The notes beneath the pieces are model-generated. The model searched no databases and was not told where the DNA came from. It was given only the letters and a program-made list of their open reading frames with translations. The translations under genes and the position numbers were made by a program. Positions 130-35,675 of a stretch of DNA of 64,000 nucleotides are shown one piece after another. Positions within the stretch are counted from its first letter, which is position 1. Each line of letters begins with the position of its first letter. This DNA comes from Lingula anatina (taxonomy: Eukaryota > Animalia > Brachiopoda), in assembly GCA_051362555.1 (NCBI GenBank), contig CM120647.1:11756651-11820650 (forward strand), read 5' to 3'.

Positions 130-472
130 TGCGGTATAAATACCAAATTCGTGAATAAAATGAAAAATAATCACTGTCAAGGGAAATATTTAAAGCACCT
201 GACACCTTCGCCACTGTTGTCTGTATGAGCCGTGTCACTGTGATGCCCGCCTACCACTGGCGCCACCTTGCGGAGCCAGCGTGGATAATCCGGGCTATTA
301 CTTTAAATAACCATGTCGCGCGACCTTATTGTCGACGCAGATGTAAACTTTCTAAAGTGTACCGTATTATTATGCAAAAGGTAATTTGCAAAGTCCCACG
401 AGCGCCCTCATTCGTTCTCGTCTCGTGACATCCCGATTCAGGGGCCAGGTCGTTGTCGTGATTGACTGACAT

Positions 473-575
473 GCCTCATCCGGGACGCGAACCCCTGACT
501 TTGCGTTACCAAGGTTGATGACGCTTTGGATGTCTCATTTGCATCCATCCACGCTACCGACTGCGCCGTGACTGA
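473..575 (-). ncRNA. tRNA-like Pol III module B (unit 1 copy; present in every unit)
   Basis: Minus strand has a D-arm GCGC-AGTCGGTA-GCGT containing an A-box-like CGGCGCAGTCGG, and a T-arm GGG-TTCGCGT-CCC (CGGG/CCCG in most units). The middle is expanded with the hairpin TGGATG-CAAATGAGA-CATCCA. The acceptor stem is poor. Confidence 0.5.
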
Positions 576-664
576 ACCGCCCACCCTCCATACGTGCGAG
601 TTTCCTCTTATAGTAATCAATCGCAATTTTCAAAAAATTAATTCTGGCAAGAAAAGAATGACAC

Positions 665-747
665 GGTAGCTACTGTGACTCGAACCAGCGTCCGAGCGTC
701 TGCCTGTATGCAAGACAGCAGAGTTACCACGCAGCCACGACAGCTCC
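665..747 (-). ncRNA. tRNA-like Pol III module A (unit 1 copy; present in all 8 units)
   Basis: Minus strand GGAGCTGTCGTGGCTGCGTGGTAACTCTGCTGTCTTGCATACAGGCAGACGCTCGGACGCTGGTTCGAGTCACAGTAGCTACC. It has an A-box-like TGGCTGCGTGG, a B-box GGTTCGAGTC, an anticodon-like arm CTGT-CTTGCAT-ACAG, pairing ends (GGAGCTG/TAGCTACC) and TTTT about 10 nt downstream. Not a canonical cloverleaf. Confidence 0.55.
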
Positions 748-3700
748 GTTGATACCGAGTGATCAGATGGAAACTTTCAACCTCCTCACGGAGAGCGCCA
801 GATTGGGTGTGCATGTGCAGACCTGCTGGCGCAATCGATAATTCGGGTGCCGCATTTCAGCCCACGCAACCCCAGCCCCCGACATGAACGGTAAAGTTCA
901 TGATGTACACGAAGTCGTGTTTGACAACACGACTCGGAGCTAGGACTTTGTTTTATACTGACATTGATTTTGGCCTTGCCCATGATATTAAAGAATACAA
1001 TGGGATCAGAGGCGGTTCACAGCAGGCGGGTTTTACTTTTAGCAAGACCATAAGAGGAGAAAAGAAATTAAAAAAATATATATATAATTTCAAGTATTTA
1101 ATTATTGGTGCGATTACAGCCACAGGAATTTTGAGGAAAACATATTTGGCAAATAAATCCGCCGAGGAGATTTTTTTTTTTCTACCGAACACGGTTAACA
1201 GGTGCTATGACGTGCTGTTATACCGGAAAAGCTACAGAATCAAAACAAGTTGGATCGTATTCATTGATAGGCCCTGCTCTGTACGTTCTTAGTAAGATGA
1301 CTTCGGATGCTTTTATTTTCATTTGGTTTTGCTTTGAGATAACGTTTGGTTTCACCTTTGACGTTGTAGAGCACGATGACGATCACAGCTGTTCACACCC
1401 CGGCAGTTTTAGCATTGAGTAGTCTTTGCTCTTTCCAATGTCGACTGCGGACTTGCCCCGGGTACTGAATGAACATACATGTATGAACAGTCTTGAGAAG
1501 CAAGAGCCCAAGATAGGAAAGGAGGGGCATAAAAAGGCAAAACGTGTACCTGATAAAAGGAGTAGAGGTGGCGCGACTTTTGTAAAAAAAAACAAAAGTT
1601 TTCTCTCTGCTAATCCCACCAAAAAGATGGCACATTTTGATGAAATGCAATCCATACGGAGTTAGTTATAGCTCAATTTAAATTCAAGATCTGTGGCACC
1701 AATAGAAGGAGTTTTAACTGAAGAGAAAGGAAATATAATTGTCGACGCAGATGTAAACTTTCTAAAGTGTACCGTATTATTATGCAAAAGGTAATTTGCA
1801 AAGTCCCACGGGCGCCCTCATTCGTTCTCAACTCGTGACATCCCGATTCAGGGGCCAGGTCGTTGTCGTGATTGACTGACATGCCTCATCCGGGACGCGA
1901 ACCCGTGACTTTGCGTTACCAAGGTTGATGACGCTTTGGATGTCTCATTTGCATCCATCCACGCTACCGACTGCGCCGTGACTGACCCGCCCACCCTCCA
2001 TACGTGCGAGTTTCCTCTTATAGTAATCAATCGCAATTTTTAAAAAATTAATTCTGGCAAGAAAAGAATGACACGGTAGCTACTGTGACTCGAACCAGCG
2101 TCCGAGCGTCTGCCTGTATGCAAGACAGCAGAGTTACCACGCAGCCACGACAGCTCCGTTGATACCGAGTGATCAGATGGAAACTTTCAACCTCCTCACG
2201 GAGAGCGCCAGATTGGGTGTGCATGTGCAGACCTGCTGGCGCAATCGATAATTCGGGTGCCGCATTTCAGCCCACGCAACCCCAGCCCCCGACATGAACG
2301 GTAAAGTTCATGATGTACACGAAGTCGTGTTTGACAACACGACTCGGAGCTCGGACTTTGTTTTATACTGACATTGATTTTGGCCTTGCCCATGATATTA
2401 AAGAATACAATGGGATCAGAGGCGGTTCACAGCAGGCGGGTTTTACTTTTAGCAAGACCATAAGAGGAGAAAAGAAATTTAAAAAATATATATATAATTT
2501 CAAGTATTTAATTATTGGTGCGTTTACAGCCACAGAAATTTTGAGGAAAACATATTTGGCAAATAAATCCGCCGAGGAGATTTTTTTTTCTACCGAACAC
2601 GGTTAACAGGTGCTATGACGTGCTGTTATACCGGAAAAGCTACAGAATCAAAACAAGTTGGATCGTATTCATTGATAGGCCCTGCTCTGTACGTTCTTAG
2701 TAAGATGACTTCGAATGCTTTTATTTTCATTTGGTTTTGCATTGAGATAACGTTTGGTTTCACCTTTGACGTTGTAGAGCACGATGACGATCACAGCTGT
2801 TCACACCCCGGCGGTTTTAGCATTGAGTAGTCTTTGCTCTTTCCAATGTCGACTGCGGACTTGCCCCGGGTACTGAATGAACATATGAACAGTCTTGAGA
2901 AGCAAGAGCCCAAGACAGGAAAGGAGGGGCATAAAAAGGCAAAACGTGTACCTGATAAAAGGAGTAGAGGTGGCGCGACTTTTGTAAAAAAAATCAAAAG
3001 TTTTCTCTCTGCTAATCCCACCAAAAAGATGGCACATTTTGATGAAATGCAATCCATACGGAGTTAGTTATAGCTCAATTTAAATTCAAGATCTGTGGCA
3101 CCAATAGAAGGAGTTTTAACTGAAGAGAAAGGAAATATAATTGTCGACGCAGATGTAAACTTTCTAAAGTGTACCGTATTATTATGCAAAAGGTAATTTG
3201 CAAAGTCCCACGAGCGCCCTCATTCGTTCTCGTCTCGTGACATCCCGATTCAGGGGCCAGGTCGTTGTCGTGATTGACTGACATGCCTCATCCGGGACGC
3301 GAACCCCTGAGTTTGCGTTACCAAGGTTGATGACGCTTTGGATGTCTCATTTGCATCCATCCACGCTACCGACTGCGCCGTGACTGAACCGCCCACCCTC
3401 CATACGTGCGAGTTTCCTCTTATAGTAATCAATCGCAATTTTTAAAAAATTAATTCTGGCAAGAAAAGAATGACACGGTAGCTACTGTGACTCGAACCAG
3501 CGTCCGAGCGTCTGCCTGTATGCAAGACAGCAGAGTTACCACGCAGCCACGACAGCTCCGTTGATACCGAGTGATCAGATGGAAACTTTCAACCTCCTCA
3601 CGGAGAGCGCCAGATTGGGTGTGCATGTGCAGACCTGCTGGCGCAATCGATAATTCGGGTGCCGCATTTCAGCCCACGCAACCCCAGCCCCCGACATGAA

Positions 3701-6700
3701 CGGTAAAGTTCATGATGTACACGAAGTCGTGTTTGACAACACGACTTGGAGCTCGGACTTTGTTTTATACTGACATTGATTTTGGCCTTGCCCATGATAT
3801 TAAAGAATACAATGGGATCAGAGGCGGTTCACAGCAGGCGGGTTTTACTTTTAGCAAGACCATAAGAGGAGAAAAGAAATTTTAAAAAATATATATATAA
3901 TTTCAAGTATTTAATTATTGGTGCGATTACAGCCACAGGAATTTTGAGGAAAACATATTTGGCAAATAAATCCGCCGAGGAGATTTTTTTTTCTACCGAA
4001 CACGGTTAACAGGTGCTATGACGTGCTGTTATACCGGAAAAGCTACAGAATCAAAACAAGTTGGATCGTATTCATTGATAGGCCCTGCTCTGTACGTTCT
4101 TAGTAAGATGACTTCGAATGCTTTTATTTTCATTTGGTTTTGCATTGAGATAACGTTTGGTTTCACCTTTGACGTTGTAGAGCACGATGACGATCACAGC
4201 TGTTCACACCCCGGCAGTTTTAGCATTGAGTAGTCTTTGCTCTTTCCAATGTCGACTGCGGACTTGCCCCGGGTACTGAATGAACATACATGTATGAACA
4301 GTCTTGAGAAGCAAGAGCCCAAGATAGGAAAGGAGGGGCATAAAAAGACAAAACGTGTACCTGATAAAAGGAGTAGAGGTGGCGCGACTTTTGTAAAAAA
4401 AATCAAAAGTTTTCTCTCTGCTAATCCCACCAAAAAGATGGCACATTTTGATGTAATGCAATCCATACGGAGTTAGTTATAGCTCAATTTAAATTCAAGA
4501 TCTGTGGCACCAATAGAAGGAGTTTTAACTGAAGAGAAAGGAAATATAACTGTCGACGCAGATGTAAACTTTCTAAAGTGTACCGTATTATTATGCAAAA
4601 GGTAATTTGCAAAGTCCCACGAGCGCCCTCATTCGTTCTCGTCTCGTGACATCCCGATTCAGGGGCCAGGTCGTTGCCGTGATTGACTGACATGCCTCAT
4701 CCGGGACGCGAACCCGTAACTTTGCGTTACCAAGGTTGATGACGCTTTGGATGTCTCATTTGCATCCATCCACGCTACCGACTGCGCCGTGACTGACCCG
4801 CCCACCCTCCATACGTGCGAGTTTCCTCTTATAGTAATCAATCGCAATTTTTAAAAAATTAATTCTGGCAAGAATAGATTGACACGGTAGCTACTGTGAC
4901 TCGAACCAGCGTCCGAGCGTCTGCCTGTATGCAAGACAGCAGAGTTACCACGCAGCCACGACAGCTCCGTTGATACCGAGTGATCAGATGGAAACTTTCA
5001 ACCTCCTCACGGAGAGCGCCAGATTGGGTGTGCATGTGCAGACCTGCTGGCGCAATCGATAATTCGGGTGCCGCATTTCAGCCCACGCAACCCCAGCCCC
5101 CGACATGAACGGTAAAGTTCATGACAACACGACTCGGAGCTCGGACTTTGTTTTATACTGACATTGATTTTGGCCTTGCCCATGATATTAAAGAATACAA
5201 TGGGATCAGAGGCGGTTCACAGCAGGCGGGTTTTACTTTTAGCAAGACCATAAGAGGAGAAAAGGAATTTAAAAAATATATATATAATTTCAAGTATTTA
5301 ATTATTGGTGCGATTACAGCCACAGGAATTTTGAGGAAAACATATTTGGCAAATAAATCCGCCGAGGAGATTTTTTTTTCTACCGAACACGGTTAACAGG
5401 TGATATACCGGAAAAGCTACAGAATCAAAACAAGTTGGATCGTATTCATTGATAGGCCCTGCTCTGTACGTTCTTAGTAAGATGACTTCGAATGCTTTTA
5501 TTTTCATTTGGTTTTGCTTTGAGATAACGTTTGGTTTCACCTTTGACGTTGTAGAGCACGATGACGATCACAGCTGTTCACACCCCGGCAGTTTTAGCAT
5601 TGAGTAGTCTTTGCTCTTTCCAATGTCGACTGCGGACTTGCCCCGGGTACTGAATGAACATACATGTATGAACAGTCTTGAGAAGCAAGAGCCCAAGATA
5701 GGAAAGGAAGGGCATAAAAAGGCAAAACGTGTACCTGATAAAAGGAGTAGAGGTGGCGCGACTTTTGTAAAAAAAAATCAAAAGTTTTCTCTCTGCTAAT
5801 CCCACCAAAAAGATGGCACATTTTGATGAAATGCAATCCATACGGAGTTAGTTATAGCAAAATTTAAATTCAAGATCTGTGGCACCAATAGAAGGAGTTT
5901 TAACTGAAGAGAAAGGAAATATAATTGTCGACGCAGATGTAAACTTTCTAAAGTGTACCGTATTATTATGCAAAAGGTAATTTGCAAAGTCCCACGAGCG
6001 CCCTCATTCGTTCTCGTCTCGTGACATCCCGATTCAGGGGCCAGGTCGTTGTCGTGATTGACTGACATGCCTCATCCGGGACGCGAACCCGTGACTTTGC
6101 GTTACCAAGGTTGATGACGCTTTGGATGTCTCATTTGCATCCATCCACGCTACCGACTGCGCCGTGACTGACCCGCCCACCCTCCATACGTGCGAGTTTC
6201 CTCTTATAGTAATCAATCGCAATTTTTAAAAAATTAATTCTGGCAAGAAAAGATTGACACGGTAGCTACTGTGACTCGAACCAGCGTCCGAGCGTCTGCC
6301 TGTATGCAAGACAGCAGAGTTACCACGCAGCCACGACAGCTCCGTTGATACCGAGTGATCAGATGGAAACTTTCAACCTCCTCACGGAGAGCGCCAGATT
6401 GGGTGTGCATGTGCAGACCTGCTGGCGCAATCGATAATTCGGGTGCCGCATTTCAGCCCACGCAACCCCAGCCCCCGACATGAACGGTAAAGTTCATGAT
6501 GTACACGAAGTCGTGTTTGACAACACGACTCGGAGCTAGGACTTTGTTTTATACTGACATTGATTTTGGCCTTGCCCATGATATTAAAGAATACAATGGG
6601 ATCAGAGGCGGTTCACAGCAGGCGGGTTTTACTTTTAGCAAGACCATAAGAGGAGAAAAGAAATTTAAAAAATATATATATAATTTCAAGTATTTAATTA

Positions 6701-9026
6701 TTGGTGCAATTACAGCCACAGGAATTTTGAGGAAAACATATTTGGCAAATAAATCCGCCGAGGAGATTTTTTTTTCTACCGAACACGGTTAACAGGTGCT
6801 ATGACGTGCTGTTATACCGGAAAAGCTACAGAATCAAAACAAGTTGGATCGTATTCATTGATAGGCCCTGCTCTGTACGTTCTTAGTAAGATGACTTCGA
6901 ATGCTTTTATTTTCATTTGGTTTTGCATTGAGATAACGTTTGGTTTCACCTTTGACGTTGTAGAGCACGATGACGATCACAGCTGTTCACACCCCGGCAG
7001 TTTTAGCATTGAGTAGTCTTTGCTCTTTCCAATGTCGACTGCGGACTTGCCCCGGGTACTGAATGAACATACATGTATGAACAGTCTTGAGAAGCAAGAG
7101 CCCAAGATAGGAAAGGAGGGGCATAAAAAGACAAAACGTGTACCTGATAAAAGGAGTAGAGGTGGCGCGACTTTTGTAAAAAAAATCAAAAGTTTTCTCT
7201 CTGCTAATCCCACCAAAAAGATGGCACATTTTGATGTAATGCAATCCATACGGAGTAAGTTATAGCTCAATTTAAATTCAAGATCTGTGGCACCAATAGA
7301 AGGAGTTTTAACTGAAGAGAAAGGAAATATAACTGTCGACGCAGATGTAAACTTTCTAAAGTGTACCGTATTATTATGCAAAAGGTAATTTGCAAAGTCC
7401 CACGGGCGCCCTCATTCGTTCTCGTCTCGTGACATCCCGATTCAGGGGCCAGGTCGTTGTCGTGATTGACTGACATGCCTCATCCGGGACGCGAACCCGT
7501 GACTTTGCGTTACCAAGTTTGATGACGCTTTGGATGTCTCATTTGCATCCATCCACGCTACCGACTGCGCCGTGACTGACCCGCCCACCCTCCATACGTG
7601 CGAGTTTCCTCTTATAGTAATCAATCGCAATTTTTAAAAAATTAGTTCTGGCAAGAAAAGAATGACACGGTAGCTACTGTGACTCGAACCAGCGTCCGAG
7701 CGTCTGCCTGTATGCAAGACAGCAGAGTTACCACGCAGCCACGACAGCTCCGTTGATACCGAGTGATCAGATGGAAACTTTCAACCTCCTCACGGAGAGC
7801 GCCAGATTGGGTGTGCATGTGCAGACCTGCTGGCGCAATCGATAATTCGGGTGCCGCATTTCAGCCCACGCAACCCCAGCCCCCGACATGAACGGTAAAG
7901 TTCATGATGTACACGAAGTCGTGTTTGACAACACGACTCGGAGCTCGGACTTTGTTTTATACTGACAATGATTTTGGCCTTGCCCATGATATTAAAGAAT
8001 ACAATGGGATCAGAGGCGGTTCACAGCAGGCGGGTTTTACTTTTAGCAAGACCATAAGAGGAGAAAAGGAATTAAAAAAATATATATATAATTTCAAGTA
8101 TTTAATTATTGGTGCGATTACAGCCACAGGAATTTTGAGGAAAACATATTTGGCAAATAAATCCGCCGAGGAGATTTTTTTTTCTACCGAACACGGTTAA
8201 CAGGTGATATACCGGAAAAGCTACAGAATCAAAACAAGTTGGATCGTATTCATTGATAGGCCCTGCTCTGTACGTTCTTAGTAAGATGACTTCGAATGCT
8301 TTTATTTTCATTTGGTTTTGCATTGAGATAACGTTTGGTTTCACCTTTGACGTTGTAGAGCACGATGACGATCACAGCTGTTCACACCCCGGCAGTTTTA
8401 GCATTGAGTAGTCTTTGCTCTTTCCAATGTCGACTGCGGACTTGCCCCGGGTACTGAATGAACATATGAACAGTCTTGAGAAGCAAGAGCCCAAGATAGG
8501 AAAGGAAGGGCATAAAAAGGCAAAACGTGTACCTGATAAAAGGAGTAGAGGTGGCGCGACTTTTGTAAAAAAAAATCAAAAGTTTTCTCTCTGCTAATCC
8601 CACCAAAAAGATGGCACACTTTGATGTAATGCAATCCATACGGAGTTAGTTATAGCTCAATTTAAATTCAAGATCTGTGGCACCAATAGAAGGAGTTTTA
8701 ACTGAAGAGAAAGGAAATATAATTGTCGACGCAGATGTAAACTTTCTAAAGTGTACCGTATTATTATGCAAAAGGTAATTTGCAAAGTCCCACGAGCGCC
8801 CTCATTCGTTCTCGTCTCGTGACATCCCGATTCAGGGGCCAGGTCGTTGTCGTGATTGACTGACATGCCTCATCCGGGACGCGAACCCGTGACTTTGCGT
8901 TACCAAGGTTGATGACGCTTTGGATGTCTCATTTGCATCCATCCACGCTACCGACTGCGCCGTGACTGACCCGCCCACCCTCCATACGTGCGAGTTTCCT
9001 CTTATAGTAATCAATCGCAATTTTTA

Positions 9027-10509
9027 AACAAGGCAGCAAAGCTGTCAAATGTACAGACAAAAAGCAGGAAATAACTATGCACAAAATAGGCTAATGTCAA
9101 TTCTGATGCAAAATTACATTATGTTAAACTGCAAATTTAACATCAAATTTTAATTATGCTCAACAGGTAATACCAATGTAAGTAAAATGTGTAACAAGCA
9201 TAAGGCTTCAGGCCCATGGAAGTTCAAGTTCACACTTTGAACGTGTATAACTTCCAGAAAAAGAAGCCAATTAGACTGCTTTTCCAACTCAGGCTGCATG
9301 CCGATTTCGAACTTGACTTGCGTTTTAGTAAGATCAATTACTCCTGTGAGTTTCATGACAACAAGCCTATCGGTTTTTCTTGAAATGTGCTTACAGTGTT
9401 GCATATATGCTGAAAAGTGAAAAAAAAAAAAGCATAACTTCTACAATAAAGGCCCGATCATGCTGATTTTTGAACTTGACCTGTGTTTTATGAATATTCA
9501 TCAGCTCTGTAAATATAAAGCCCAAAAGTAAAACTGCCTTCCACGGCGACGGCGATGACGGCGACGACAGACACAGGTGATGTCAATATGTACAGACACA
9601 TCTATATATATTTACTGTACTGTTTAAGAACAGTAATTGACATGGTTTTTCTTAAATGGTCATCATGGGAACAGTGCCCAAAATAGGTTTTTTTCAAATT
9701 TTGATGCAATATTACATAATGTTTAACAGCATAATGACCATCAATTTTTAATAATAAAATATTAGTATCATGGATGTTCAGAAAATGTGACTAGCAAAGG
9801 TCTTCAGGCCCATGGAACTTCAAAGTCACAACTTGAAAATGCCAAAATGTAAACAAGACAGCACTGTTCTGAAATGTTTTTTTTTTCCATTTTTAACAAT
9901 TTTTAACATAAAACAAAATTAACAGTTTACTGCCATTTTTATATGATCAACTAAGAAAATTGATGAGATGGGAAAAATATCAACAGAGCAGTGTTAAATG
10001 TCCAATTTCTTCCATTCTGAGATTCTGAACATAGTGAATGATTGAATCTGACAAACTGCAATGATATGAGTTTTTTTCTATTTTTGAAACTTTATTACAC
10101 AATTCATGATAACAAGTTTACCATCTTTTTTACAAAATCAACTAACAATGTTGTAAAGATGCAGGAAATGTCAAACAAACACTTTTATGTATCTTATTAG
10201 TTTAATAATGAGACTGTTAACATGCCTAAGAATTGAATCTGAGGAAATGTGAAAAATATGCTGAAAAGTGAAAAAACAGCATAACTTCTACAATAATGGC
10301 CCGATCATACTGATTTTCGAACTTGACCTGCGTTTTATGAATATTCATCAGCTCTGTAAATATAAAGCCAAAAAGTAAAACTGCCCTCCACTTATCGTGT
10401 TTACAAGGAAAGTGCACGGCGCCGGCATCGCCATCGCCATCGCCATCGCCATCGGCGACGACAGACGCAGGTGATGGCAATATGTACAGACACATCTGTG
10501 TCTGTACAT
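9027..10509 (-). mobile_element. Non-autonomous Helentron-type element (HINE/DINE-1-like), internally deleted copy inserted in array unit 7
   Basis: One end is AACAAG-GCAGC-AAA-GCTGTC plus subterminal ATGTACAGAC. The other has a (CATCGC)n microsatellite and the palindrome ATGTACAGACAC-ATCT-GTGTCTGTACAT. Comparison with empty units shows insertion into TTTTTA|AAAAATT with no TSD. Confidence 0.85.
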
Positions 10510-13093
10510 AAAAATTAATTCTGGCAAGAAAAGAATGACACGGTAGCTACTGTGACTCGAACCAGCGTCCGAGCGTCTGCCTGTATGCAAGACAGCAGAG
10601 TTACCACGCAGCCACGACAGCTCCGTTGATACCGAGTGATCAGATGGAAACTTTCAACGTTAACCTCCTCACGGAGAGCGCCAGATTGGGTGTGCATGTG
10701 CAGACCTGCTGGCGCAATCGATAATTCGGGTGCCGCATTTCAGCCCACGCAACCCCAGCCCCCGACATGAACGGTAAAGTTCATGATGTACACGAAGTCG
10801 TGTTTGACAACACGACTCGGAGCTCGGACTTTGTTTTATACTGACAATGATTTTGGCCTTGCCCATGATATTAAAGAATACAATGGGATCAGAGGCGGTT
10901 CACAGCAGGCGGGTTTTACTTTTAGCAAGACCATAAGAGGAGAAAAGGAATTAAAAAAATATATATATAATTTCAAGTATTTAATTATTGGTGCAATTAC
11001 AGCCACAGGAATTTTGAGGAAAACATATTTGGCAAATAAATCCGCCGAGGAGATTTTTTTTTTTCTACCGAACACGGTTAACAGGTGCTATGACGTGCTG
11101 TTATACCGGAAAAGCTACAGAATCAAAACAAGTTGGATCGTATTCATTGATAGGCCCTGCTCTGTACGTTCTTAGTAAGATGACTTCGAATGCTTTTATT
11201 TTCATTTGGTTTTGCATTGAGATAACGTTTGGTTTCACCTTTGACGTTGTAGAGCACGATGACGATCACAGCTGTTCACACCCCGGCAGTTTTAGCATTG
11301 AGTAGTCTTTGCTCTTTCCAATGTCGACTGCGGACTTGCCCCGGGTACTGAATGAACATACATGTATGAACAGTCTTGAGAAGCAAGAGCCCAAGATAGG
11401 AAAGGAGGGGCATAAAAAGACAAAACGTGTACCTGATAAAAGGAGTAGAGGTGGCGCGACTTTTGTAAAAAAAATCAAAAGTTTTCTCTCTGCTAATCCC
11501 ACCAAAAAGATGGCACATTTTGATGTAATGCAATCCATACCGTGTAAGTTATAGCTCAATTTAAATTCAAGATCTGTGGCACCAATAGAAGGAGGTTTAA
11601 CTGAAGAGAAAGGAAATATAACTGTCGACGCAGATGTAAACTTTCTAAAGTGTACCGTATTATTATGCAAAAGGTAATTTGCAAAGTCCCACGGGCGCCC
11701 TCATTCGTTCTCGTCTCGTGACATCCCGATTCAGGGGCCAGGTCGTTGTCGTGATTGACTGACATGCCTCATCCGGGACGCGAACCCGTGACTTTGCGTT
11801 ACCAAGTTTGATGACGCTTTGGATGTCTCATTTGCATCCATCCACGCTACCGACTGCGCCGTGACTGACCAGCCCACCCTCCATACGTGCGAGTTTCCTC
11901 TTATAGTAATCAATCGCAATTTTTAAAAAATTAGTTCTGGCAAGAAAAGAATGACACGGTAGCTACTGTGACTCGAACCAGCGTCCGAGCGTCTGCCTGT
12001 ATGCAAGACAGCAGAGTTACCACGCGGCCACGACAGCTCCGTTGATACCGAGTGATCAGATGGAAACTTTCAACCTCCTCACGGAGAGCGCCAGATTGGG
12101 TGTGCATGTGCAGACCTGCTGGCGCAATCGATAATTCGGGTGCCGCATTTCAGCCCACGCAACCCCAGCCCCCGACATGAACGGTAAAGTTCATGATGTA
12201 CACGAAGTCGTGTTTGACAACACGACTCGGAGCTAGGACTTTGTTTTATACTGACATTGATTTTGGCCTTGCCCATGATATTAAAGAATACAATGGGATC
12301 AGAGGCGGTTCACAGCAGGCGGGTTTTACTTTTAGCAAGATCATAAGAGGAGAAAAGAAATTAAAAAATATATATATATAATTTCAAGTATTTAATTATT
12401 GGTGCGATTACAGCCACAGGAATTTTGAGGAAAACATATTTGGCAAATAAATCCGCCGAGGAGATTTTTTTTTCTACCGAACACGGTTAACAGGTGCTAT
12501 GACGTGCTGTTATACCGGAAAAGCTACAGAATCAAAACAAGTTGGATCGTATTCATTGATAGGCCCTGCTCTGTACGTTCTTAGTAAGATGACTTCGAAT
12601 GCTTTTATTTTCATTTGGTTTTGCATTGAGATAACGTTTGGTTTCACCTTTGACGTTGTAGAGCACGATGACGATCACAGCTGTTCACACCCCGGCAGTT
12701 TTAGCATTGAGTAGTCTTTGCTCTTTCCAATGTCGACTGCGGACTTGCCCCGGGTACTGAATGAACATATGAACAGTCTTGAGAAGCAAGAGCCCAAGAT
12801 AGGAAAGGAAGGGCATAAAAAGGCAAAACGTGTACCTGATAAAAGGAGTAGAGGTGGCGCGACTTTTGTAAAAAAAAAATCAAAAGTTTTCTCTCTGCTA
12901 ATCCCACCAAAAAGATGGCACATTTTGATGAAATGCAATCCATACGGAGTAAGTTATAGCTCAATTTAAATTCAAGATCTGTGGCACCAATAGAAGGAGT
13001 TTTAACTGAAGAGAAAGGAAATATAATTGTTGACGCAGATGTAAACTTTCTAAAGTGTACCGTATTATTATGCAAAAGGTAATTTGCAAAGTC

Positions 13094-13660
13094 GTTTGGT
13101 TTCACCTTTGACGTTGTAGAGCACGATGACGATCACAGCTGTTCAAACATATATATATACTTTCAAGTATTTAATTATTGGTGCGATTACAGCCACAGGA
13201 ATTTTGAGGAAAACATATTTGGCAAATTATTCCGCCGAGGAGGTTTTAGCATTGAGTATTCTTTGCTTTTTCAAATGTCGACTGCGGACTTCCCCCGGGT
13301 ACTAAATGAACATATGAACAATCTTGAGAAGCAAGAGCCCAAGATAGGAAAAGAGGGGTATAAAAAGACAAAACGTGTGCCAGATAAAAGGAGTAGAGGT
13401 GGCGCGACTTTTGTAATATCGGTAAGCTACTGAATCAATTCAAGTTCCATCTGTTTCATTGATATCCCGCTGGGAACGTTCCTAGTTAGATGGGTTCAGA
13501 TGATTTTACTTCCATTTTATTTTGCACTGAGATAACGTTTGGTTTCACCTTTGACATAATAAAGCACGATGTGGTCCACAGCTGTTCACACCTTGGCGGT
13601 TTTAGATTTGTGTAGTCTTTACTCTTTTAATGTTGACTGTGGAGCTGCCCTGGGTACTGT
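13094..13660. repeat. Scrambled and diverged array-edge sequence
   Basis: 13094-13415 consists of out-of-order fragments of the unit. 13420-13660 is a much more diverged homologue of the unit segment at ~1225-1467. Confidence 0.85.
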
Positions 13661-13757
13661 ATAAAAAACGACTTTTTTTACCTGTAAAGTGAATGTCAAT
13701 GATGGAAAATGAAAACACGTTTCAGTTAAAAGAAAAATGAATTATTTCATTTTTCAG

Positions 13758-13844
13758 ATTGCACTAGTGTTTGATGGTGCCACCAACGGTCCGTTATTCG
13801 GTCTTTTCTTTTTGGGTATTTTGTGTCCGTTCACCAATTGGCAG
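13758..13844 (+). CDS. Single 87-nt exon of an SLC5 sodium:solute symporter (SLC5A5/A6/A8/A12-like subfamily)
   Basis: tttcattttttcAG|IALVFDGATNGPLFGLFFLGILCPFTNWQ|GTaaga, phase 0-0. It matches the subfamily motif G-x-x-x-GPLxGxFxLGxxxPxxN. Confidence 0.75.
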
Positions 13845-14078
13845 GTAAGATATTTGCAGTGGTTCTAAGTTGAAGGATTCCACTTGCATTGTGAAGTTTT
13901 TGTTAAATTGTATCTTTTTTAGCTCTAATGTTTGGTTCCTTTGTTTTATCTGTGGTAGCTAACTCAGTGTAAACGTTTCTTGAAAAGAACAGTCTTAGTC
14001 ACAAAACATAATATGCTTACTTCTTGATAATATAAGTTGACACACTTAAATCACACAGCTAAAACACATTCAAATTAA

Positions 14079-14867: not shown

Positions 14868-16309
14868 TTACTGTGGATTTTTGAGCTTCAAATGGCTATG
14901 CTATAAAACTCGAAATTCACATGGTCGTGTCTTGTTCGTCATTCAACGAGACCCATAGATGCGAAATTGCCAAGACCTGCGCTGCATTTGTCTTATACTG
15001 TGCATGTTATAAAACACGAAATTGACATAAATGTAGTCATGCTTATTTCGAGACATGCTGGCTCCCATATAATAAAATGCAAGATTGCCTTGTGCCAAGT
15101 CACATTTGTCTTTTACTGTGGAATTTATGCTTTTAAATGTCATAAAGCACGAACTAAGCATGTCTCATGTGATTTTCGTAGTCGTGTCAACAGAGCCAAG
15201 TACTTGTATCACGAATTTAAGGGTGTAAAAAGAAAAAAAAAATATTGCATTTAGAACGACGAAAAAATTAAGTGATATTACAGTCATTTCTATTGGCTTT
15301 TGCATCAAACCTTTGTTAATTCAACACTGTCACGTTTTGCAGTAAAGGGAATTCAGGGTCGTAGTGTATAAGTATTTATTTCTTGAAAAATGAAAACCAC
15401 AGCTTAAATAAATAAAGCAACAATATTCATTGGGACATTCCAAAATTAAATATTGCTATACAGTGTAACAAGATCAAATAGTACCATATTAAACATAAGA
15501 CCTGTTTAGTCAGTGTACTACTACGTGGTAAAGTTGACACTTTTGGAGATAAAATACAGAAACCAGTTCTGCATAATGCTGAATCCTATACATCATATAG
15601 CAACACAAAATAGATTCAAGCTTTCACAAGAATTTACACACAGTGATCACAGAATCTGCAGTAAAAAAAAAGAGGAATAAAAACTCATTGCAATGTTTTA
15701 GTAAACTAATTATAGTGTAAACAGCATTATGTTGATTCTTCAACAAGTGAAATATAAAATTTAATGATAATAATAATAATAAAATTTAAAACATGTTTAA
15801 CTGTATACACTTTATCTTACACATGACCCTCCATGACAAATACTATGATATACAACATCATTTAATTCTAAAAAACAGTTAGGAATGTTCAAATAGCACC
15901 TTATAATACCATCAAATGGTACGGAAATAAGACATAACATTTACATTATATAAATCACATATGTATATCACAGTCTTTAAATATTCTAAAAACATGTATA
16001 ATAAAGAAATATTGATTTGACTAAAAGAAAAATCTAACTGAGTTAAAATCAGACAGCTTTAGTCTGCATAAACTATAGAGTTGTGGCAGAAGTTTTTCTT
16101 TCTTTTTAATGATTTATCATCCTGCAGATCAAAAGCACTTTTGTCTCACATTAAAAAATGCCACTGGTGTCACATTGCGACTGATTAAAATGACTGTTGG
16201 TGCACTGATATCTCATTTAAGTTTTTGAAAAAATCTAAGTTTGTGACAAAAAAAGTACATGTGACCAATTATCCTCTTGCCTTCATTGTCTACTAGAACT
16301 CTTGAAAGT

Positions 16310-19300
16310 TTATCTCAAATTTAAACAGTTTTCTTTCTGCAGCTTGACACAAAGTCTTCCCAACTGACGGACACAGTCCTCCCCCATAGTGGACAGCATG
16401 GTCAGCCTCTTGACCACTAAGCTGAAGGAAGTCTGGGGCTGACCACTGGTCATCTGGAATAACAAATACATTAATAAATTGATGAATATGTATACCATTA
16501 TGTTTTTGGAGGCCATCTTGGAAAAAATGTCCACCAGATGTCACTGGGTGCTGGTTCTATATCCCAAAATCCTCAGCTAGTTAGTTATCTGGGTTGTCAA
16601 CATTCTGAGCAAGATTAGTGCTTGCTTTCACAGAAATGAAGGATTGTGGTAAATAACAGCTACATTACAGAATTTAGTGTGTTCCGATGTAGACCCAAGG
16701 AACATAAACCAATTTCCCCCTTCATTTTTTATATAGATTTAATTTCATGTTTTACATAATTATTGCTATTTTTCTAATTCATGTTTTTTTCTCAACCACA
16801 AGTTGTCTCTTTAAACTTCCATCACATGAATTTGCTTGCCACATGAACAGAGCTTAATTTAAGGCTGTTACATCCACCCCCCTCCCCTCTCAGAAAACCC
16901 CACCTGTTCTTCACCTACCTGTTCTATTTGTGAGGCAAAAAAGTCCAATCTTTCCAGACAGCTGAAGAGAAGTTTGTTCTGGGCTAGTTGTCTTCTTGTC
17001 AGAGTGCACATGATAGTGTAAACATTTTCCATAACCATATGGTACTAAAAACAAACAGATTGAATGTAGTAAAAAACATTTACTTGTTAAATTTAAACAG
17101 CGATATCTTCTACTCTTATTAATACTAATATCTATTTCTGGTAGTATTTCTGGTTTTCTAATTTTCCTACCTAAAAAAATTACCCAGTAAATTTAAATAG
17201 TAATATTAAAAAAAATAAATCAAGTTATATTAAATGTTTATCTGTGAGTAACTAAGAGTGATAAACCAAGAAAATGTAAAATTCAGAATATGTTATACTT
17301 CTTTTGAGAAATAAGCATATCGTTAAAAGAAAAAAAAACTTACCTCAGCTTTAAGTTTGATGACATCATATATGAAATCTGCTGCAGATGGTGTTACCTG
17401 GTTAAAATATGAAGATGTAGCTTACATAATTTAATTTAAAATGTTTGATCGAAAGACAATGTTTCATATTCCATAGAAAATAATAACTGAAGAGATTTTT
17501 TTTTTTTGCTTGGTTTCAGTACTGTATATAAACGGGGCAGACAAAAATGACCAAAAATTTGAAGAATGTGCACTTTTAACTTTTTTAATGGCTGATAGAG
17601 TGATTAATTCAGTTAATCCCCAGTTTATCTCTTGGCACATCTTATTTATAAATTCGAGTCACGTAAGAAACTAATATAGGGTGCATAATATGCATTACTG
17701 GGGATCCAGGCTCCACTGACTCTCACTTCGAATGTACCTTTAAATATCTTAGCTTAAAACTACCAACTCAGGTGCAAGCACAACAGTCTAAAAATCCTAA
17801 AAGTATAATTTGTGCAGTTTTTACCTTCATAATGTGGCAGCAGTTCACAGCGGCTTGTCTTGCATGCTCTGCTCTCCACCTCTTCCACGCTCTGCGATGT
17901 CTGAGACACTGACGATAAAACGTGTTGGTTCTTAACATCCACCTGGGTGCAGAATCTAGTTCGACAGTCTGGAAATAAATACATCATATAAATTCCAGGT
18001 ACAGGGATCTACTAGACTATGAACTGTAACAGCTGCTGTAGTAAAAAAAAAAATTCATCATAAAGGAAGTCAAGGAATAATGAAAAAAATTTATAAATAA
18101 TCAGTTTGCTAATATCGAGTGTCAAGTAAAAACAAAAAAAAAAAGTATGTTTAGTGACAGAAAATTAGAAACTGGATATATCTTAAGGTTAGCCGTTTTA
18201 ACATTAAAGTCAGTTATTATTTTTATTATACTTTACTTTTAGAATATAATTAAGTATTAAAAAATCAATTTTTGTTAGACAGTCCACAACAAGCTACTGC
18301 AGAAAGAGGCTCCACCATGTATCTGAGATTAGGCCTATTCAAATTCAATTAAAAATTAATAATTCATTTTATAATAGAATTCATTTATTTAAACAGATAA
18401 AACTCTCATTCAACTCACGGTTTCTTTTTTGGCCATAGAGGAGCAGCTCGAATTCAGATGGTTACTAGTCCAGGGTTTTAAACACTCCCAGCAAAAATCT
18501 TGTCCACAACGGCAGGTCATGTGTTGACAGCCTCCATTTTTCTGCATGGGGTAACTGCAGTGAGGGCATTTCTTGACCCTCACATAAAACAAGTAGCTGT
18601 CCTCACCTGCCTTACAATTCTTTCCTGTATGTCCTACAGATATGAGGCACAATTGTCAGAGCCAGGGATGCTCAATGCATGATGGATATCGTTCTTCAAA
18701 TTTACAAAGTTGCAATTATTTCAATTTTCTAAATCTTTGCTTAAATTCAACAGCCGTTTAAAGCTAAGAGCAGTAAAAAAAAAAGAAGACTTTTTATTGC
18801 TTAAAACTGTAAAACACTAGAGTGGCATTAGAATTAAAATGTGACATATAATACAGACGTACCATTCTGTTTAAGAATTTTCTGATAGTTTGCCGCCAAG
18901 TCGCAGGTTGCTGGCCAGTGTGCCTCCTCATGGCAGTCAAAACACCAGGTGGCTCCACAGTCACAACCAACGCAGGGGGTCTGGCCAAGAAAAGCCTGTG
19001 TCCTCTGCACCTGGACGGTACGTCCACATTTTGGGTTGGGGCACCAGGCGAGGTGGGGGCTGGTGTCCACCGCGAGTTCTCGTGTCCTCTGCTCCAGCAG
19101 CTGGTAGGCTGGTAACGGCACCAGACAGAGGACGGTGGCCGGGTCAACCAGTTCTGAACATTTGTACGCCTGAGAAATGAACCCATCAATTCATCAATGT
19201 TCAAATGTATGTGAAATTAAGGTGTGTGTGTGTGTGTGTGTGTGTTTGCATTGTTTCTCAACTACATGTACTAGTACTACTTTTACTGTATGGATTTCAT

Positions 19301-22300
19301 CAGTCTTACAGTAATTATCTACTGGTATAGATAAATTGTGTGGGTGCATGCATGTGTGGAATTTGCTTCTCAACTATCAATTAAAATAAACGAAAAAGAG
19401 CAAATCAAAGACTGAACACATTCAGTTTAATTTTGTCAAAATATGACAATATACATGTAAACTTTGATATAACCCACATATTAAGATAAGATACTGGTGC
19501 ATTTACATAGTATCCATAAGCACATGTCAAGTACTTATTTATTTCTTTGCATCATCATCAACAGAATTTGTTTACAAAATCATAATAATAAATAAATTCA
19601 CTCACAGGACACACAAGGTTGGAAAAACCTTGTTTTATGATTGACAGAAGATAATCTCTCCAGCAGTCTACGCAGAACCAGTGTTGGCATGACAACAAGG
19701 CAGAAGCTTCCCCATTGGTCAGTTCACTGTAACAGATATCACATGACATGTCGTCTGATGCTGGGGTACAAGATGGCAGACTGGCTGTTTTTCTATGAGA
19801 GTTGTCTTGCAGATCCTGGAATAGTTTAATAGTCTCAGTTCCTGGTTGAAATCTGACAGTATGGACGACAAAAATATTTCAGTTTTACTTAAAATACTTA
19901 TATCAATGGTGGATCTTTCAAAAATAAAAAATAAATAAATAAAAATAAAAACATGTTTTCAGAAAACGTGAGTCTCTTAGACCAATTGCATACTGAGCAT
20001 TTTATAGAAATGGAACATTTTTCCAAGAAAATAAAATTAAATTACAAAATAAAAAATAAAAAAAAATCTTACCCTTTGACAGATATCTAAAAGTGACTTC
20101 ATTTCCATGTCATAATTCTCCATTTTCCAGCCACAAACTGTCTGCAGAAGTGAAAAGTGAAACTTTTGTGGTGACTGAAATTTCTTTCTGAACTTCTTTC
20201 TTTTCTCAGAACAAACGTCAAGTTGGCCAAGTGTCTGTACAATACTTTCTACAACATCATGGAAAGGGCATGGTCCTGTGGAAGCCAAGTCAAACATTGT
20301 ACTCTGAAGAACATCTGCTGTGTTTGATGAAAGGTCACCCTTTACTTGTACCCTAAAAAGCAGAAAAATATTAGTAATTGGGGTATAACAAGAAAAAGCA
20401 GGAAAAGCATATTTCAGACAATTACTAATAGTACATGTAACTTTGCTAATGAAGTTTAATTCGGAAAACTACAGTCCTTATTTCTTAGTTTTCTTCTCAT
20501 ATTTTACAATTTTTCCTTTTTATTTTAAATCTGCTACACTCATGTATTTCTCCATCAGCATTGCAAAAAATAAAATGAAATAACTTGCAAGTCTGTTTAC
20601 TAACCTTAATTGCACAACACCAGTACTAGTATCTTTCTGAATATCAAAGTCACAGAAATCCCAACCATTATCACAAGTATCACCAAGACCACCATGTCCA
20701 ATACTGCCTAGTGACTCAGCGATGATAAACATCGAGATTTCTTCCTCTTTCCCAGAACTGATGTCCTTGCTGATATCGATGACAAACCGACGGGGGACTG
20801 TATAAGACTCTCTGTACCTGCCACCAAAGTACTGACGCATGACACTGTCACTGATGCTGTCTGTTGTCACGGTGATGTCGCTTACAGCGTGATGAGTGTC
20901 AGTGTCATCAAATGCACTATTGATGACATCCTGGGTGACATTGACACTATCTTCACCTGTGTCTTGGTCATTTTTATCACTGACATTGTACTCATCATTT
21001 CTGGAGTCCTCATCAATAAGAATTACCATGCTTCCCTTTGAGTGAAATTTTACAATATCACTACCACTCATGATTAGGTTAGGGTGGGTGGCTTTTACCC
21101 TAGAGGAATTCCTTTTTTCTTTTTTCATGGACTTTTTCTTGAGAGAAACATTTGTCAGGAAATCAGATAAAGTAAACGGTCTAGTAATTTTTTCTGCTTG
21201 CTTATAAGTTTTATATGGATTGTCTTGATCATCAGTGCCGTCTACAGGACCACTGGAATAATAGCCCTCATCTTGATCAGCAGTGACATCTTGTGAACAA
21301 ACAGAAACATTTTCTTCATCCAAAAGAATTTCATCATCTAACCAGTCAACTCCGTCATATGATTCCCATTTTTTACAATAATGATACCAGGTCAGATCAG
21401 GGTTGTTTCGTCTGCCTTTTCCCTTGGACTTTGCTTTATTCAATGGCCATGACCTATCTATAATTAAAAAAAAAAATAATTGACAAAATTATTACTCCAG
21501 AAAAATTGACTTGCACTGCATAGGTACAGTCCTTGCAAATGTTACGTGGAAGGTGATGACGACTACTGTCCTTATAGAATACAACAGAAATCATTATTTT
21601 CTTTTAAATAAATGGACCAGTACTGGTAGAGTAACCTGTAATTTAAAAGGGGGATGGGGGAAGGGGGTTTGAAAACATGGACCTGTTTACCCTGGCCCCT
21701 TAGTTGATCTTAACTGAGAAGTAATATAAAACCGCACATTTTGAGTCATGACCTCCTGAACCCCCCCCCCCCCCCAGCCCCTTCCCCCTTCAAACCACGC
21801 CTGGTGCCTGCCCAGGTATCAGTTTAAAGAAATACAGTATTTTTCCCAACTGAAGGGACCTTCTTTTCAGAGATGACTGGCCAAACCCCTTGCTCCACCC
21901 TGTATACAAACATGCCAAAGTCCAGACTGACTCAACTTACCCCATCTGAAGGGACCATCTTTGCACAGCATGTGAGCCACAGGCCTCGTGGGATAACAGA
22001 CTTCATATCTCAGTTCTGCGGGACCATCTGTCGGTACATGGGGGCTAGCATATGGAAACATCTCTCTGGGAATTGTCAAGAAAAACTGCCAATAAAAGTA
22101 GTTTTCCCTGAACATTTAAATTTTGTACACATTTTAAGAAAATAATGTTTAGATACAAGATTTCTAGTAGACTTTCTTGATATTTTGTATATATACTGTT
22201 TGTACCTTTCAGTTTCAGCATTTTCCTTCTCTTCCTGTGGCTGCAACATCACCTGGTGCCTTTGAGCTCCTCTTATTTTTCTAAGGGTGTTGTTCTTCCT

Positions 22301-22864
22301 CTTTTCCTTCATTCTATCCCGTGTTGTTTTTCCCACTGAATTTCTCGCCATGCCATTGCGTCTCAGATCAGTGATATAACTTCTTTTACTCTTGGGGTAC
22401 GTGCTAGGAAATTTTCTTTTGCTGTCATGGTAACCAATACAGTCCGCTATGAACCGGTTTCTACGAGGACTAATCATTGATGAATAGGTAGAGCGCTCAA
22501 ACAATGTCAGCTTGGACTTTTCCACTTCCTGAGCATCTGCATCACTGATAGCTTCCTTAACAGTTCCGGGAAGAAGCCAGCGTTTCCTTTTATTCAGAGA
22601 ATACAAAACATCCAGTCCATTGTAACGCGCATTCAGTCTCAAACCGCCATCTTGAATAATGTCAGTAAACTCTCCTTCGATCTCCCTGTGATAGTCCTCT
22701 CGATCATCACTAAACAAGCGTGTTAAGATTTCTTTAATGATGTAGCCACCCTTGTACTCCGAGGTGTGATGCTGCCTCCAACACTTCTGCACTGACACCC
22801 ATGGTCCAACTTTCGGCATAGAACAGCCTGTGTTCAGGCCTTGCTTGCTCCTCTTTAGCACCAT
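16310..22864 (-). CDS. RBR-family (RING1-IBR-RING2) E3 ubiquitin ligase, Ariadne-like, with long N-terminal extension; 11 coding exons, ~1038 aa
   Basis: Exons 22864-22206, 22065-21941, 21457-20605, 20352-20073, 19815-19606, 19169-18863, 18633-18419, 17968-17825, 17397-17344, 17044-16919 and 16453-16310. All introns are GT-AG and phase-compatible, total 3117 nt. RING1 is CDICY..CQHWFCVDCW..CPAYKC, IBR is WCPNPKC..CDCGATWCFDCHEEAHWPATC, and RING2 is KKCPHC..KNGGCQHMTCRCGQDFCWEC with the catalytic Cys intact. Confidence 0.9.
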
Positions 22865-23552
22865 GCTGGTTATTTTACTGTATGCAACGTTCTTCTATGT
22901 GAAACTCTGGATAATGATAATAAAAATAATATGATCAAAACAACAACAACAATAATAATAATAACAACAACAAAAACGACTGGTTCTTAAAATTGTCTTC
23001 ATTTCACATGTTTGAGGACTTTGCTTTCGTGCTTTAGCAAGGCGTCAAGAATAATACAAAGGGAGTGCTAACATAAGAATATTCGGGCGAGAATATTCCA
23101 TGAGCACTAACAATTATACCGAAGACGTTGGGAAGTTTTAAGTTTGTTTATGAAGTTTACCTCTTTAGTCACCTCTTTACCTAGGCTCTCTTCACCTTCA
23201 CCCTCCAAATATTAATGTTTATATACATCTTCGCTTTTATATCCCGATGGTGTCAGCAAAAAATACTATGAAGCCACCGTGGTGCAATACTCGTGGTGCA
23301 ACCACCGGATGTTTTGATAGGTGCTCAGCATTAACAGTCCAGCCAGGCTTTGATTGGTTGAAAATAAACCTAAAATCAACAAAAAATATAGGCCAGTTGC
23401 TGGGTTGTATTGCTAAAGAATTTAATGTTTTTAATTTAATGAATTTTTTTATTCAACATTGATTTATATAGATTTATCCGTTGTTTGTTACCTATATTGG
23501 ATTTGGAGCATCTTGAAGCACCCCACCTACCGACGGAAAGATTGTTTATAAC
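22865..23552. promoter_or_regulatory. Probable bidirectional promoter / 5' UTR region
   Basis: Only ~690 bp separate the start codons of two divergently oriented genes. Inferred from position only. Confidence 0.5.
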
Positions 23553-23846
23553 ATGGCAATAGGAGTCAGCGGTGCTATTTTTATAGCTCGCATTTTCTTC
23601 GTGATACTGCTGTTCCAGAAATATTTGGTGGGTATTTAAAGACGTAGATTGGATGGTGCATATAGCTTATTGGAGAATTATAATGAAAAGACGCAATTGC
23701 CTCTTTTAAATACGATTTATCCTTAGAACTTGCTCGAATGTTTAACCGAGTTCTTGATTATCATGAGCACTCGTATTTCACATATATAGATGTATTACAC
23801 ATTATCATTTATGAATAGATTTTTCTTACCCCACCATCCCCTTCCA

Positions 23847-23896
<50 letters not shown>

Positions 23897-25852: not shown

Positions 25853-25917
<65 letters not shown>

Positions 25918-28882: not shown

Positions 28883-28913
<31 letters not shown>

Positions 28914-30923: not shown

Positions 30924-30973
<50 letters not shown>

Positions 30974-35608: not shown

Positions 35609-35611
<3 letters not shown>

Positions 35612-35674: not shown

Positions 35675-35675
<1 letters not shown>

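What the first reader, a model, noticed from the sequence alone, without database searches (positions are those of the whole stretch)
328..13093. Homogenised 1.4-kb array in which every unit carries two non-canonical tRNA-like Pol III modules
Seen: eight near-identical units, each with two co-oriented minus-strand modules about 90 bp apart (unit 1: 747-665 and 575-473). Both have A-box-like and B-box sequences, and T-runs lie between them. Module A has pairing ends, an Ala-like CT-TGC-AT loop and a long variable region. Module B has good D and T arms but an expanded middle. Known: tandem kb-scale units with internal Pol III promoters are how 5S, tRNA and other small-RNA genes are often arrayed. 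I do not recognise either module as a canonical tRNA or 5S gene. Inference: this may be an amplified cluster of undescribed tRNA-like small RNA genes or TFIIIC-binding insulator elements. The alternative is that SINE heads were passively caught in a satellite.
Basis: partly seen in the sequence, partly recalled or inferred. Interest (0 to 1): 0.8.

Follow-up and report, generated by a model that had tools for sequence, protein, structure and literature searches.

The report
Brachiopod macrosatellite with tRNA-like promoters
In the lamp shell Lingula, eight near-identical 1.4-kb repeats are a local offshoot of a much larger repeat family whose units carry two tRNA-like promoter sequences that are not working tRNAs; one promoter box is mutated in all eight copies here, so this array is likely a passively copied satellite of a kind known from frogs and newts, and whether other copies make small RNAs is untested.

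Summary
In detail: eight 98.6-99.4% identical 1.4-kb units, each with two minus-strand A-box/B-box modules (2 box pairs per unit, none in 300 shuffles). Neither module is a tRNA, 5S, vault or other Rfam family. The genome is Lingula anatina. Genomic contigs show the whole unit, not just the modules, is a many-copy family (roughly 80-400 copies), apparently tandem, so these are not heads of an abundant dispersed SINE. All eight local units share 29 letters absent from the family majority, including a substitution at the conserved A of module B's B box. The modules vary as much as spacer DNA, and single variants delete either one. Long-RNA libraries gave 47 reads, no module-shaped pile-up; short RNAs are untested. 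Best reading: a long-period tandem repeat with tRNA-derived promoters, like Xenopus OAX or newt PolIII/TAN, copied at DNA level, this array being a partly damaged orphan. Open: majority alleles restore B's box and pairs, so other arrays may make small RNAs. The scan noted similar two-module repeats on other DNA (an octopus-type genome, Perkinsus).

The parts
328..13093 (.). Tandem array: 8 units of 1375-1418 bp plus a 68-bp stub
328..1737 (.). Unit 1 (reference unit, 1410 bp)
663..749 (-). Module A: A box at 737, B box at 686 (intact core in 8 of 8 units), tRNA-Ser-like spacing, paired ends, D and T stems broken in tRNA register
632..655 (-). T4 (655-652) and T6 (637-632) runs, predicted Pol III terminators of module A
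   Evidence: function inferred
607..612 (-). TATA-like hexamer 30-35 nt upstream of module B (weak, untested)
   Evidence: sequence
473..577 (-). Module B: A box at 568, D arm, two middle hairpins, T arm; B box at 493 with an array-specific substitution at 487 in 8 of 8 units
376..379 (-). First T4 run downstream of module B (predicted end of an RNA of about 200 nt)
   Evidence: function inferred
870..945 (-). Y-shaped twin hairpin, the strongest fold of the unit; part deleted in unit 4; no Rfam match, no canonical hammerhead core
9029..10509 (.). Transposon-like insertion in unit 7, in the T/A run between the two modules; relatives at 24420-31841
   Evidence: the Helentron/HINE-like label is recalled, not tested
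13093..13665 (+). Scrambled older pieces of the unit (98, 95, 94 and 80% identical); the 80% piece has the family-majority letter at 8 of 9 diagnostic sites
13759..13845 (+). Mid-protein exon of an SLC5-type transporter with AG/GT ends; the array likely lies antisense in the intron before it
   Evidence: sequence; SMCT1, E 0.016; upstream exon not found in the window

Best explanation
This is a locally homogenised eight-copy offshoot of a many-copy 1.4-kb Lingula repeat whose unit carries two tRNA-like A-box/B-box modules and a strong twin hairpin, and it likely spreads by DNA-level copying as a satellite in which the modules ride along, with module B's promoter predicted to be weakened in every copy here. 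Shown: the array, the boxes, the failure of both modules as tRNAs, the larger family, the array-specific B-box substitution, mosaic exchange among units. Inferred: the modules descend from tRNA genes or old SINE heads (A from a long-variable-arm type, B from a short-arm type with an extra hairpin); one founder unit, likely in an SLC5 intron, expanded by unequal crossing-over and gene conversion, fixing its private mutations regardless of promoter function; a whole unit cannot be a single Pol III transcript, so retroposition of the unit is unlikely. Module A keeps an intact B-box core and terminators and could give an RNA of about 95-115 nt; that is untested.
For: Whole unit is high-depth in two DNA runs of the organism from two studies: 7,991-154,926 per bin against 104-238 in the left flank; 15,490-206,765; no excess over the modules. 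Share running on into unlike DNA is 0.02 and 0.03; a head-to-tail joint 1737 to 328 is seen; among the loose-end rows shown no place has more than 11 contigs. Of 35 majority-difference rows tested, 29 are absent from all 8 units, among them 487 in the B box; the 80% end piece sides with the majority at 8 of 9 sites, so the array letters are the derived ones where this can be tested. Common variants: module A 2 in 83 nt, module B 5 in 103, other 15 in 315 (p 0.54, 1.0); within-array 5 of 41 substitution columns fall in 186 module bases of 1410 (p 1.0). Joints delete module A (635 to 759/761, both runs) or module B (384 to 582). 81 of 153 site pairs fail the four-gamete test and identity does not fall with distance. 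14 minus-strand runs of 4 or more T per unit, 5 of them 5 or longer. RNA: 31 and 16 reads in 9.5 and 12.4 million records, 0 of 47 at 99% or more, no start or end pile-ups; 94% and 56% run on into unlike sequence; all 10 reads over 487 carry the majority letter. Precedent: OAX, PolIII/TAN, Rana/polIII, Hy/polIII as summarised in PMC10702118.
Against: Majority alleles improve module B: 487 restores the B-box consensus, 495 a T-stem pair and 548 extends the hairpin predicted from the window's own sequence (three tests fixed beforehand); 549, 573 and 576 fit further pairs that I drew after seeing them. Module A has no majority difference from the family in 83 nt. The twin hairpin folds better as minus-strand RNA (z -5.8) than plus (z -3.8), the strand of the modules. 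The conservation test has little power (22 sites, one species). Summed contig depth is not a copy number, and only 6 loose-end rows per run were shown (267 and 93 hidden), so 'mostly tandem' is supported, not proven. The RNA libraries are polyA or unspecified long-insert and about 6% was read; RNAs of about 100 nt are lost in such libraries.
Confidence: 0.6

Rival explanations
1. The family's main arrays are a real Pol III gene cluster making two (or three, with the twin hairpin) structured small RNAs, possibly stage-specific as reported for OAX or vault-like in shape; the window's array is an orphan in which gene B has been damaged.
For: Majority alleles restore the B box and pairs of module B; module A is unchanged in the majority, has paired ends and T4/T6 runs 8 and 26 nt behind; TATA-like hexamer 30-35 nt before B; vault RNAs are defined mainly by boxes A/B and paired ends (PMC7058938 passages); some copies keep B's 5' part and change the middle at about 538-554.
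Against: No excess conservation; folds of A and B no better than shuffles (z -0.9, -0.3); no Rfam match at E up to 10 even on 121- and 141-base stretches; deletions of either module exist; 0 and 2 RNA reads on module A; no terminator right after B.
Confidence: 0.2
2. The unit is a non-autonomous mobile element (rolling-circle Helitron/Helentron type, or an LTR mini-element of the Helenus/Cassandra type) that forms head-to-tail concatemers; the twin hairpin is its replication or end signal and the tRNA-like parts are captured promoters.
For: Many internal-deletion variants; strong hairpins that fold as DNA on both strands (z -4.0, -4.3); a purine tract precedes the TG at which the array starts (1720-1741); Lingula has Helenus families (PMC10886601); Cassandra forms long arrays (PMC7215508 abstract).
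Against: No recurring terminus among loose ends shown; the plus-strand CTAG after the hairpin is in only 3 of 8 units and not in the majority; the purine tract is 6 nt from the TG; no match to the Helenus_LAn primer site or LTR motif (0 matches); Helenus has one tRNA-like part per LTR and Helenus-1_LAn is 323 bp.
Confidence: 0.13
3. The boxes act as DNA only: TFIIIC-binding (ETC-like) insulator or boundary sites kept in arrays.
For: Boxes are better kept than the tRNA fold; two B boxes per unit in the majority type.
Against: The B box, the TFIIIC anchor, is substituted in one of the two modules throughout this array; no excess conservation; A boxes and terminators would not be needed.
Confidence: 0.05
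4. The modules are heads of currently abundant dispersed SINEs caught in a satellite.
For: tRNA-Ser-headed SINEs and short SINE tandems are common in bivalves (PMC11481361 passages).
Against: No depth excess over either module and little run-on into unlike DNA at 80% likeness; no other copy in the remaining 50 kb; no SINE tail or TSD seen. An extinct SINE as the remote source is not excluded and is part of the best explanation.
Confidence: 0.02

Closest known systems
Xenopus OAX / satellite I, newt PolIII/TAN, Rana/polIII, Hydromantes Hy/polIII (as summarised in PMC10702118, Background read; original papers not seen)
   Same: Head-to-tail repeats whose unit holds a tRNA-derived segment with no matching dispersed SINE; PolIII/TAN is reported there to be transcribed in vitro.
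   Different: Those are amphibian, with units of about 200-360 nt where given and one tRNA-like segment. Here: a brachiopod, a 1.4-kb unit, two unrelated modules plus a twin hairpin; no sequence comparison was possible; transcription not shown.
SINE-derived satellites (sSat) of squamates (PMC10702118, Background and Discussion) and tandem HCD-SINEs of bivalves (PMC11481361, passages)
   Same: tRNA-head-bearing tandem repeats, homogenised within loci, some in introns.
   Different: Their units are parts of an identifiable abundant SINE; here the modules are 13% of the unit and no abundant dispersed parent shows in contig depth.
Helenus / Cassandra TRIMp3 elements (PMC10886601, parts 1-4 of 6 and supplement passages; PMC7215508, abstract)
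   Same: Pol III promoter relic inside a repeat that can form arrays; three Helenus families are described from Lingula anatina.
   Different: Different sequence, Helenus-1_LAn is 323 bp against 1410 bp, no LTR pair with primer site and adjacent purine tract found.
Vault RNA genes (PMC7058938 passages)
   Same: Internal boxes A and B, paired 5' and 3' ends, variable middle, size near 90-140 nt (module A).
   Different: No Rfam match; a many-copy satellite context; terminator not directly at the stem; particle binding untested.

Membership tests
tRNA gene | Detected by ARAGORN or Rfam tRNA models | tested here: not met
   relaxed ARAGORN gives only scattered chance folds, none spanning a module as such
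tRNA gene | 7-bp acceptor, D, anticodon and 5-bp T stems in register | tested here: not met
   A: 4/7, 1/4, 4/5, 1/5; B: acceptor 2/7, D 4/4, T 3-4/5
tRNA gene | Internal A and B boxes | tested here: met
   2 pairs against 0 in 300 shuffles, each box with 1 mismatch; B's mismatch is at the conserved A
5S rDNA array | 5S rRNA gene in the unit | tested here: not met
   no Rfam match
Vault RNA | Match to the Rfam vault model | tested here: not met
   (E up to 10)
Vault RNA | Boxes A/B and paired 5'/3' ends | tested here: inconclusive
   A pairs 4+5 bp or 8+3 bp in two alternative registers but fold z is -0.9
Vault RNA | Abundant RNA bound to TEP1 or vault particles | not testable with these tools
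   needs small-RNA data and vault purification
Dispersed SINE | Head far more abundant than its flanks, in many unique contexts | tested here: not met
   no depth excess, run-on share 0.02-0.03
Dispersed SINE | LINE-derived tail and TSDs on solo copies | not testable with these tools
   no whole genome held
Helenus (TRIMp3) | Sequence of Helenus-1 to -3_LAn (primer site, LTR motif) | tested here: not met
   0 matches (motifs)
Helenus (TRIMp3) | TG...CA LTRs, primer site, adjacent purine tract, 4-bp TSD | tested here: inconclusive
   purine tract 6 nt before a TG at the array start; CA-TGG candidates listed but not compared with a tRNA set; right end is scrambled, so no TSD test
Retrozyme / Sm-alpha type | Canonical hammerhead core in the unit | tested here: not met
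   0 of 9 pattern matches lie in the unit sequence (one lies in the insertion in unit 7); no Rfam match
Helitron | 3' hairpin followed by CTRR, constant ends, insertion between A and T | tested here: inconclusive
   hairpin present; CTAG in 3 of 8 units and not in the majority; ends not mappable without the genome
tRNA-containing tandem repeat (OAX / PolIII-TAN kind) | Head-to-tail multi-copy repeat with a tRNA-derived A/B segment and no abundant dispersed parent | tested here: met
tRNA-containing tandem repeat (OAX / PolIII-TAN kind) | Transcribed by Pol III in vitro or in vivo | tested here: inconclusive
   long-RNA libraries only, 47 reads, none module-shaped

The most novel reading that the evidence does not exclude
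The main arrays of this family are an undescribed Lingula gene cluster of three co-oriented structured small RNAs, with module A a vault-like Pol III RNA of about 100 nt. I found no vault RNA report for a brachiopod or mollusc in the listings. The cluster would be amplified a few hundred-fold like 5S genes, and the window would show a half-dead orphan copy.
Probability: 0.15. Interest if true: 0.75.

Novelty: new variant of a known kind. Interest (0 to 1): 0.36.

Why it matters
As most likely read, it extends tRNA-promoter-bearing long tandem repeats, described from amphibians, to a brachiopod, with a two-module plus hairpin design, and it shows a promoter-box mutation fixed across a whole array, a clean case of concerted evolution ignoring the embedded promoter. 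It also gives a built-in test: majority-type and array-type module B differ at one B-box base. If the majority arrays make RNAs, they would be a new high-copy Pol III small-RNA class, possibly bearing on what vault RNAs look like outside deuterostomes.

Tried and rejected
No whole genome is held, so no genome-wide BLAST. TRF finds no sub-period of 500 bp or less in the unit; an apparent 460-bp internal period did not beat shuffles, nor did similarity of the left flank to the unit. ORFs in the unit match no Pfam family at a curated cut-off (2 unit ORFs among 7 proteins). Run search: no RNA holder listed. Runs of four other organisms (B, C, D; E) gave 6, 8, 1 and 5 contigs, the unit-specific ones at depth 2-15 and carrying the family-majority letters; I read them as likely trace DNA, and lack of cover proves nothing, so cross-species conservation remains untested. 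An exact module-B motif found nothing in metagenome or viral contigs. A looser module-A pattern gave 109 and 2 loci: 81 of 111 are one unrelated interspersed repeat, others include tRNA-Ser genes (4 of 10 loci scanned); none aligns to the unit beyond chance AT-rich or box matches (best 36.5 bits). A decayed plus-strand hammerhead in the twin hairpin was considered and dropped (several core changes). The likeness of B's A box to a tRNA-Ser primer-binding site (recalled) was dropped because the D arm and T arm explain it better. First protein search at near lengths found nothing. Paper searches for vault RNA evolution, Lingula repeats and TFIIIC macrosatellites listed no description of this repeat; Repbase and most subscription papers are not covered. 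Earlier scan notes held no look-alike sequence.
Full report
Observation. The array is real. BLAST of unit 1 against the window gives seven whole units, an eighth split by a 1.48-kb insertion, a 68-bp stub ending at 13093 and scrambled pieces to 13665. The eight units are 98.6-99.4% identical. ARAGORN finds no tRNA. Rfam finds nothing at gathering scores and only chance matches at E up to 10 on the unit and on each module alone.

Organism and place. A neighbouring minus-strand exon is 100% identical to Lingula anatina LOC106167576, an RBR E3 ligase. An exon at 13759-13845 with AG/GT ends resembles residues 416-438 of SMCT1 (E 0.016). It is a mid-protein exon, so the array likely lies antisense in an SLC5 intron; I did not find the upstream exon.

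Anatomy. Module A (749-663) aligns in register with long-variable-arm tRNA-Ser genes, but its acceptor pairs 4 of 7, T stem 1 of 5, D stem 1 of 4 and anticodon stem 4 of 5 (one search had some registers off by one). Its ends can pair in two alternative ways and its B box can fold into an 8-bp hairpin, but the fold is not better than shuffles (38 of 200 as good). T4 and T6 runs follow, so an RNA would be about 95-115 nt (inferred). Module B (577-473) has a D stem of 4 of 4, two middle hairpins, a T stem of 3-4 of 5 and an acceptor of 2 of 7; the conserved A of its B box is C in 8 of 8 units. The first T4 is at 379-376, so an RNA would be about 200 nt. A scan of 44 windows of 90 nt found the unit's strongest fold elsewhere: a Y-shaped twin hairpin at 945-870, z -5.8 as minus-strand RNA, -3.8 as plus-strand RNA, about -4 as DNA (0-1 of 200 shuffles). 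Unit 4 has lost 21 bp of it. It matches no Rfam family and has no canonical hammerhead core.

The family. With no genome held, I laid public contigs at 80% likeness. In run X1 every bin wholly inside the unit has summed depth 7,991-154,926 against 104-238 in the left flank; 1,611 contigs lie on it, 916 of them under 95% alike. Run X2, of another study, agrees on 330-830. Summed contig depth is not a copy number. Two rough inferences give a range: the lowest unit bin over the flank gives about 80; the share of depth without the majority letter at 487 (4% and 2%) and 495 (about 0.5%, carried by two units) gives about 200-400 if this array is the only bearer. Depth over the modules is not above the spacer, 2-3% of laid sequence runs on into unlike DNA, a head-to-tail joint is seen, and no shown loose end has more than 11 contigs (only 6 rows per run were shown). 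So the repeated thing is the whole unit, probably mostly in tandem, and not a SINE head. Single-contig joints delete module A (both runs) or module B, and 11 contigs in X2 keep B's 5' part but change at about 538.

This array is a derived offshoot. One search showed 40 of 149 difference rows; I kept the 35 in the unit with a share of 0.74 or more (dropped 297, 392, 401, 424, 1629). At 29 of the 35 no local unit has the majority letter. The 80% piece at the right end has the majority letter at 8 of 9 such sites, and the 94% piece shares 4 of 6 with the array, so the array letters are derived where this can be tested and the lineage has sat here long enough to leave older ends. One array-wide change hits the B box of module B (487: 96% and 98% of depth have the consensus letter). 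Among units, 81 of 153 site pairs fail the four-gamete test and identity does not depend on distance (rho -0.20, p 0.31), as expected from repeated unequal exchange or conversion (inference). Fourteen T runs per unit on the minus strand argue against a unit-length Pol III RNA.

Selection. All 22 places that differ in 30% or more of X2's depth are listed: 2 in module A (83 nt), 5 in B (103 nt), 15 in 315 other nt; Fisher p 0.54, 1.0 and 0.66 combined. Within the array, 5 of 41 substitution columns fall in the modules (p 1.0). Power is low. Against a purely passive reading, the majority alleles in B restore the box (487), a T-stem pair (495) and extend a hairpin (548, only 59%); 549, 573 and 576 also fit pairs, but I drew those after seeing the alleles. 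Module A has no majority difference. Depth is lower over the 3' half of A (19,000-37,000 against 118,000-200,000 over B in X2); this may mean fewer variants or fewer copies and I cannot tell which.

Expression. About 6% of two raw RNA runs was read: 31 reads in 9.5 million records (selection unspecified) and 16 in 12.4 million (polyA). None is 99% alike to unit 1, 26 of 31 in X18 are under 90%, most run on into unlike sequence, none piles up at module ends, module A has depth 0 and 2, and all 10 reads over 487 carry the majority letter. This fits read-through of scattered diverged copies. Strandedness was not calibrated, and such libraries lose RNAs near 100 nt, so short transcripts are untested.

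Comparison. PMC10702118 (outline, Background and Discussion read) lists newt PolIII/TAN, Xenopus OAX, Rana/polIII and Hy/polIII as tandem repeats with a tRNA-like segment and no confirmed parent SINE; this is the closest kind. I did not see the original papers. PMC10886601 (parts 1-4 of 6 and supplement passages) reports three Helenus families in Lingula, with other sequence. PMC11481361 (passages), PMC7058938 (passages), PMC550661 (passages) and PMC7215508 (abstract) supplied the SINE-tandem, vault and Cassandra comparisons. Searches listed no description of this repeat, but Repbase and Dfam could not be checked, and supplements of the other papers were not opened. Earlier scan notes describe similar two-module repeats in an octopus-type genome and in Perkinsus; these are unchecked AI notes.

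Verdict. Most likely (0.6) a long-period tandem repeat with tRNA-derived promoter modules, copied at DNA level, of which the window shows a partly damaged local array. A functional small-RNA cluster in the majority-type arrays (0.2) and a non-autonomous mobile element (0.13) remain open. New variant of a known kind; interest 0.36.

Noticed in passing
window 9029-10509; 24420-31841: Insertion in unit 7 and larger relatives with 161-bp and 338-bp internal tandem repeats, short GC-rich microsatellites and a terminal palindrome; two large copies lie inverted (24988-27356 against 31841-29490, 94.5%). Helentron/HINE-like by recalled anatomy.
   Followed up: partly
window 870-945 (minus), in 7 of 8 units intact: Y-shaped twin hairpin, strongest fold of the unit, unexplained; could be a third RNA module or a DNA replication or end signal.
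   Followed up: yes
L065:1272-1332 and 80 other loci of L001-L109: An interspersed repeat in metagenome contigs, probably animal host DNA, carries an internal tRNA-Ser-like A/B module of the same 61-nt span as module A, with at least 150 nt of shared sequence upstream, so it is not a 5' SINE head; possibly a non-autonomous DNA transposon. Not homologous to this unit beyond the boxes.
   Followed up: partly
window about 16300-22900 (minus): RBR-type E3 ligase gene (LOC106167576; IBR domain), lying opposite to and just downstream of the SLC5-type exon; may be nested in an SLC5 intron.
   Followed up: partly
window 150-300 (minus): Left flank has an A-box-like stretch and short motifs in register with module A and its T runs (offsets 459-470), but the alignment score did not beat shuffles; may be a very old copy.
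   Followed up: partly
window 541-630 and 761-827: In RNA run X18, two diverged partial copies appear in about 13 reads each, embedded in longer transcripts, mostly with the first mate on the minus strand.
   Followed up: no
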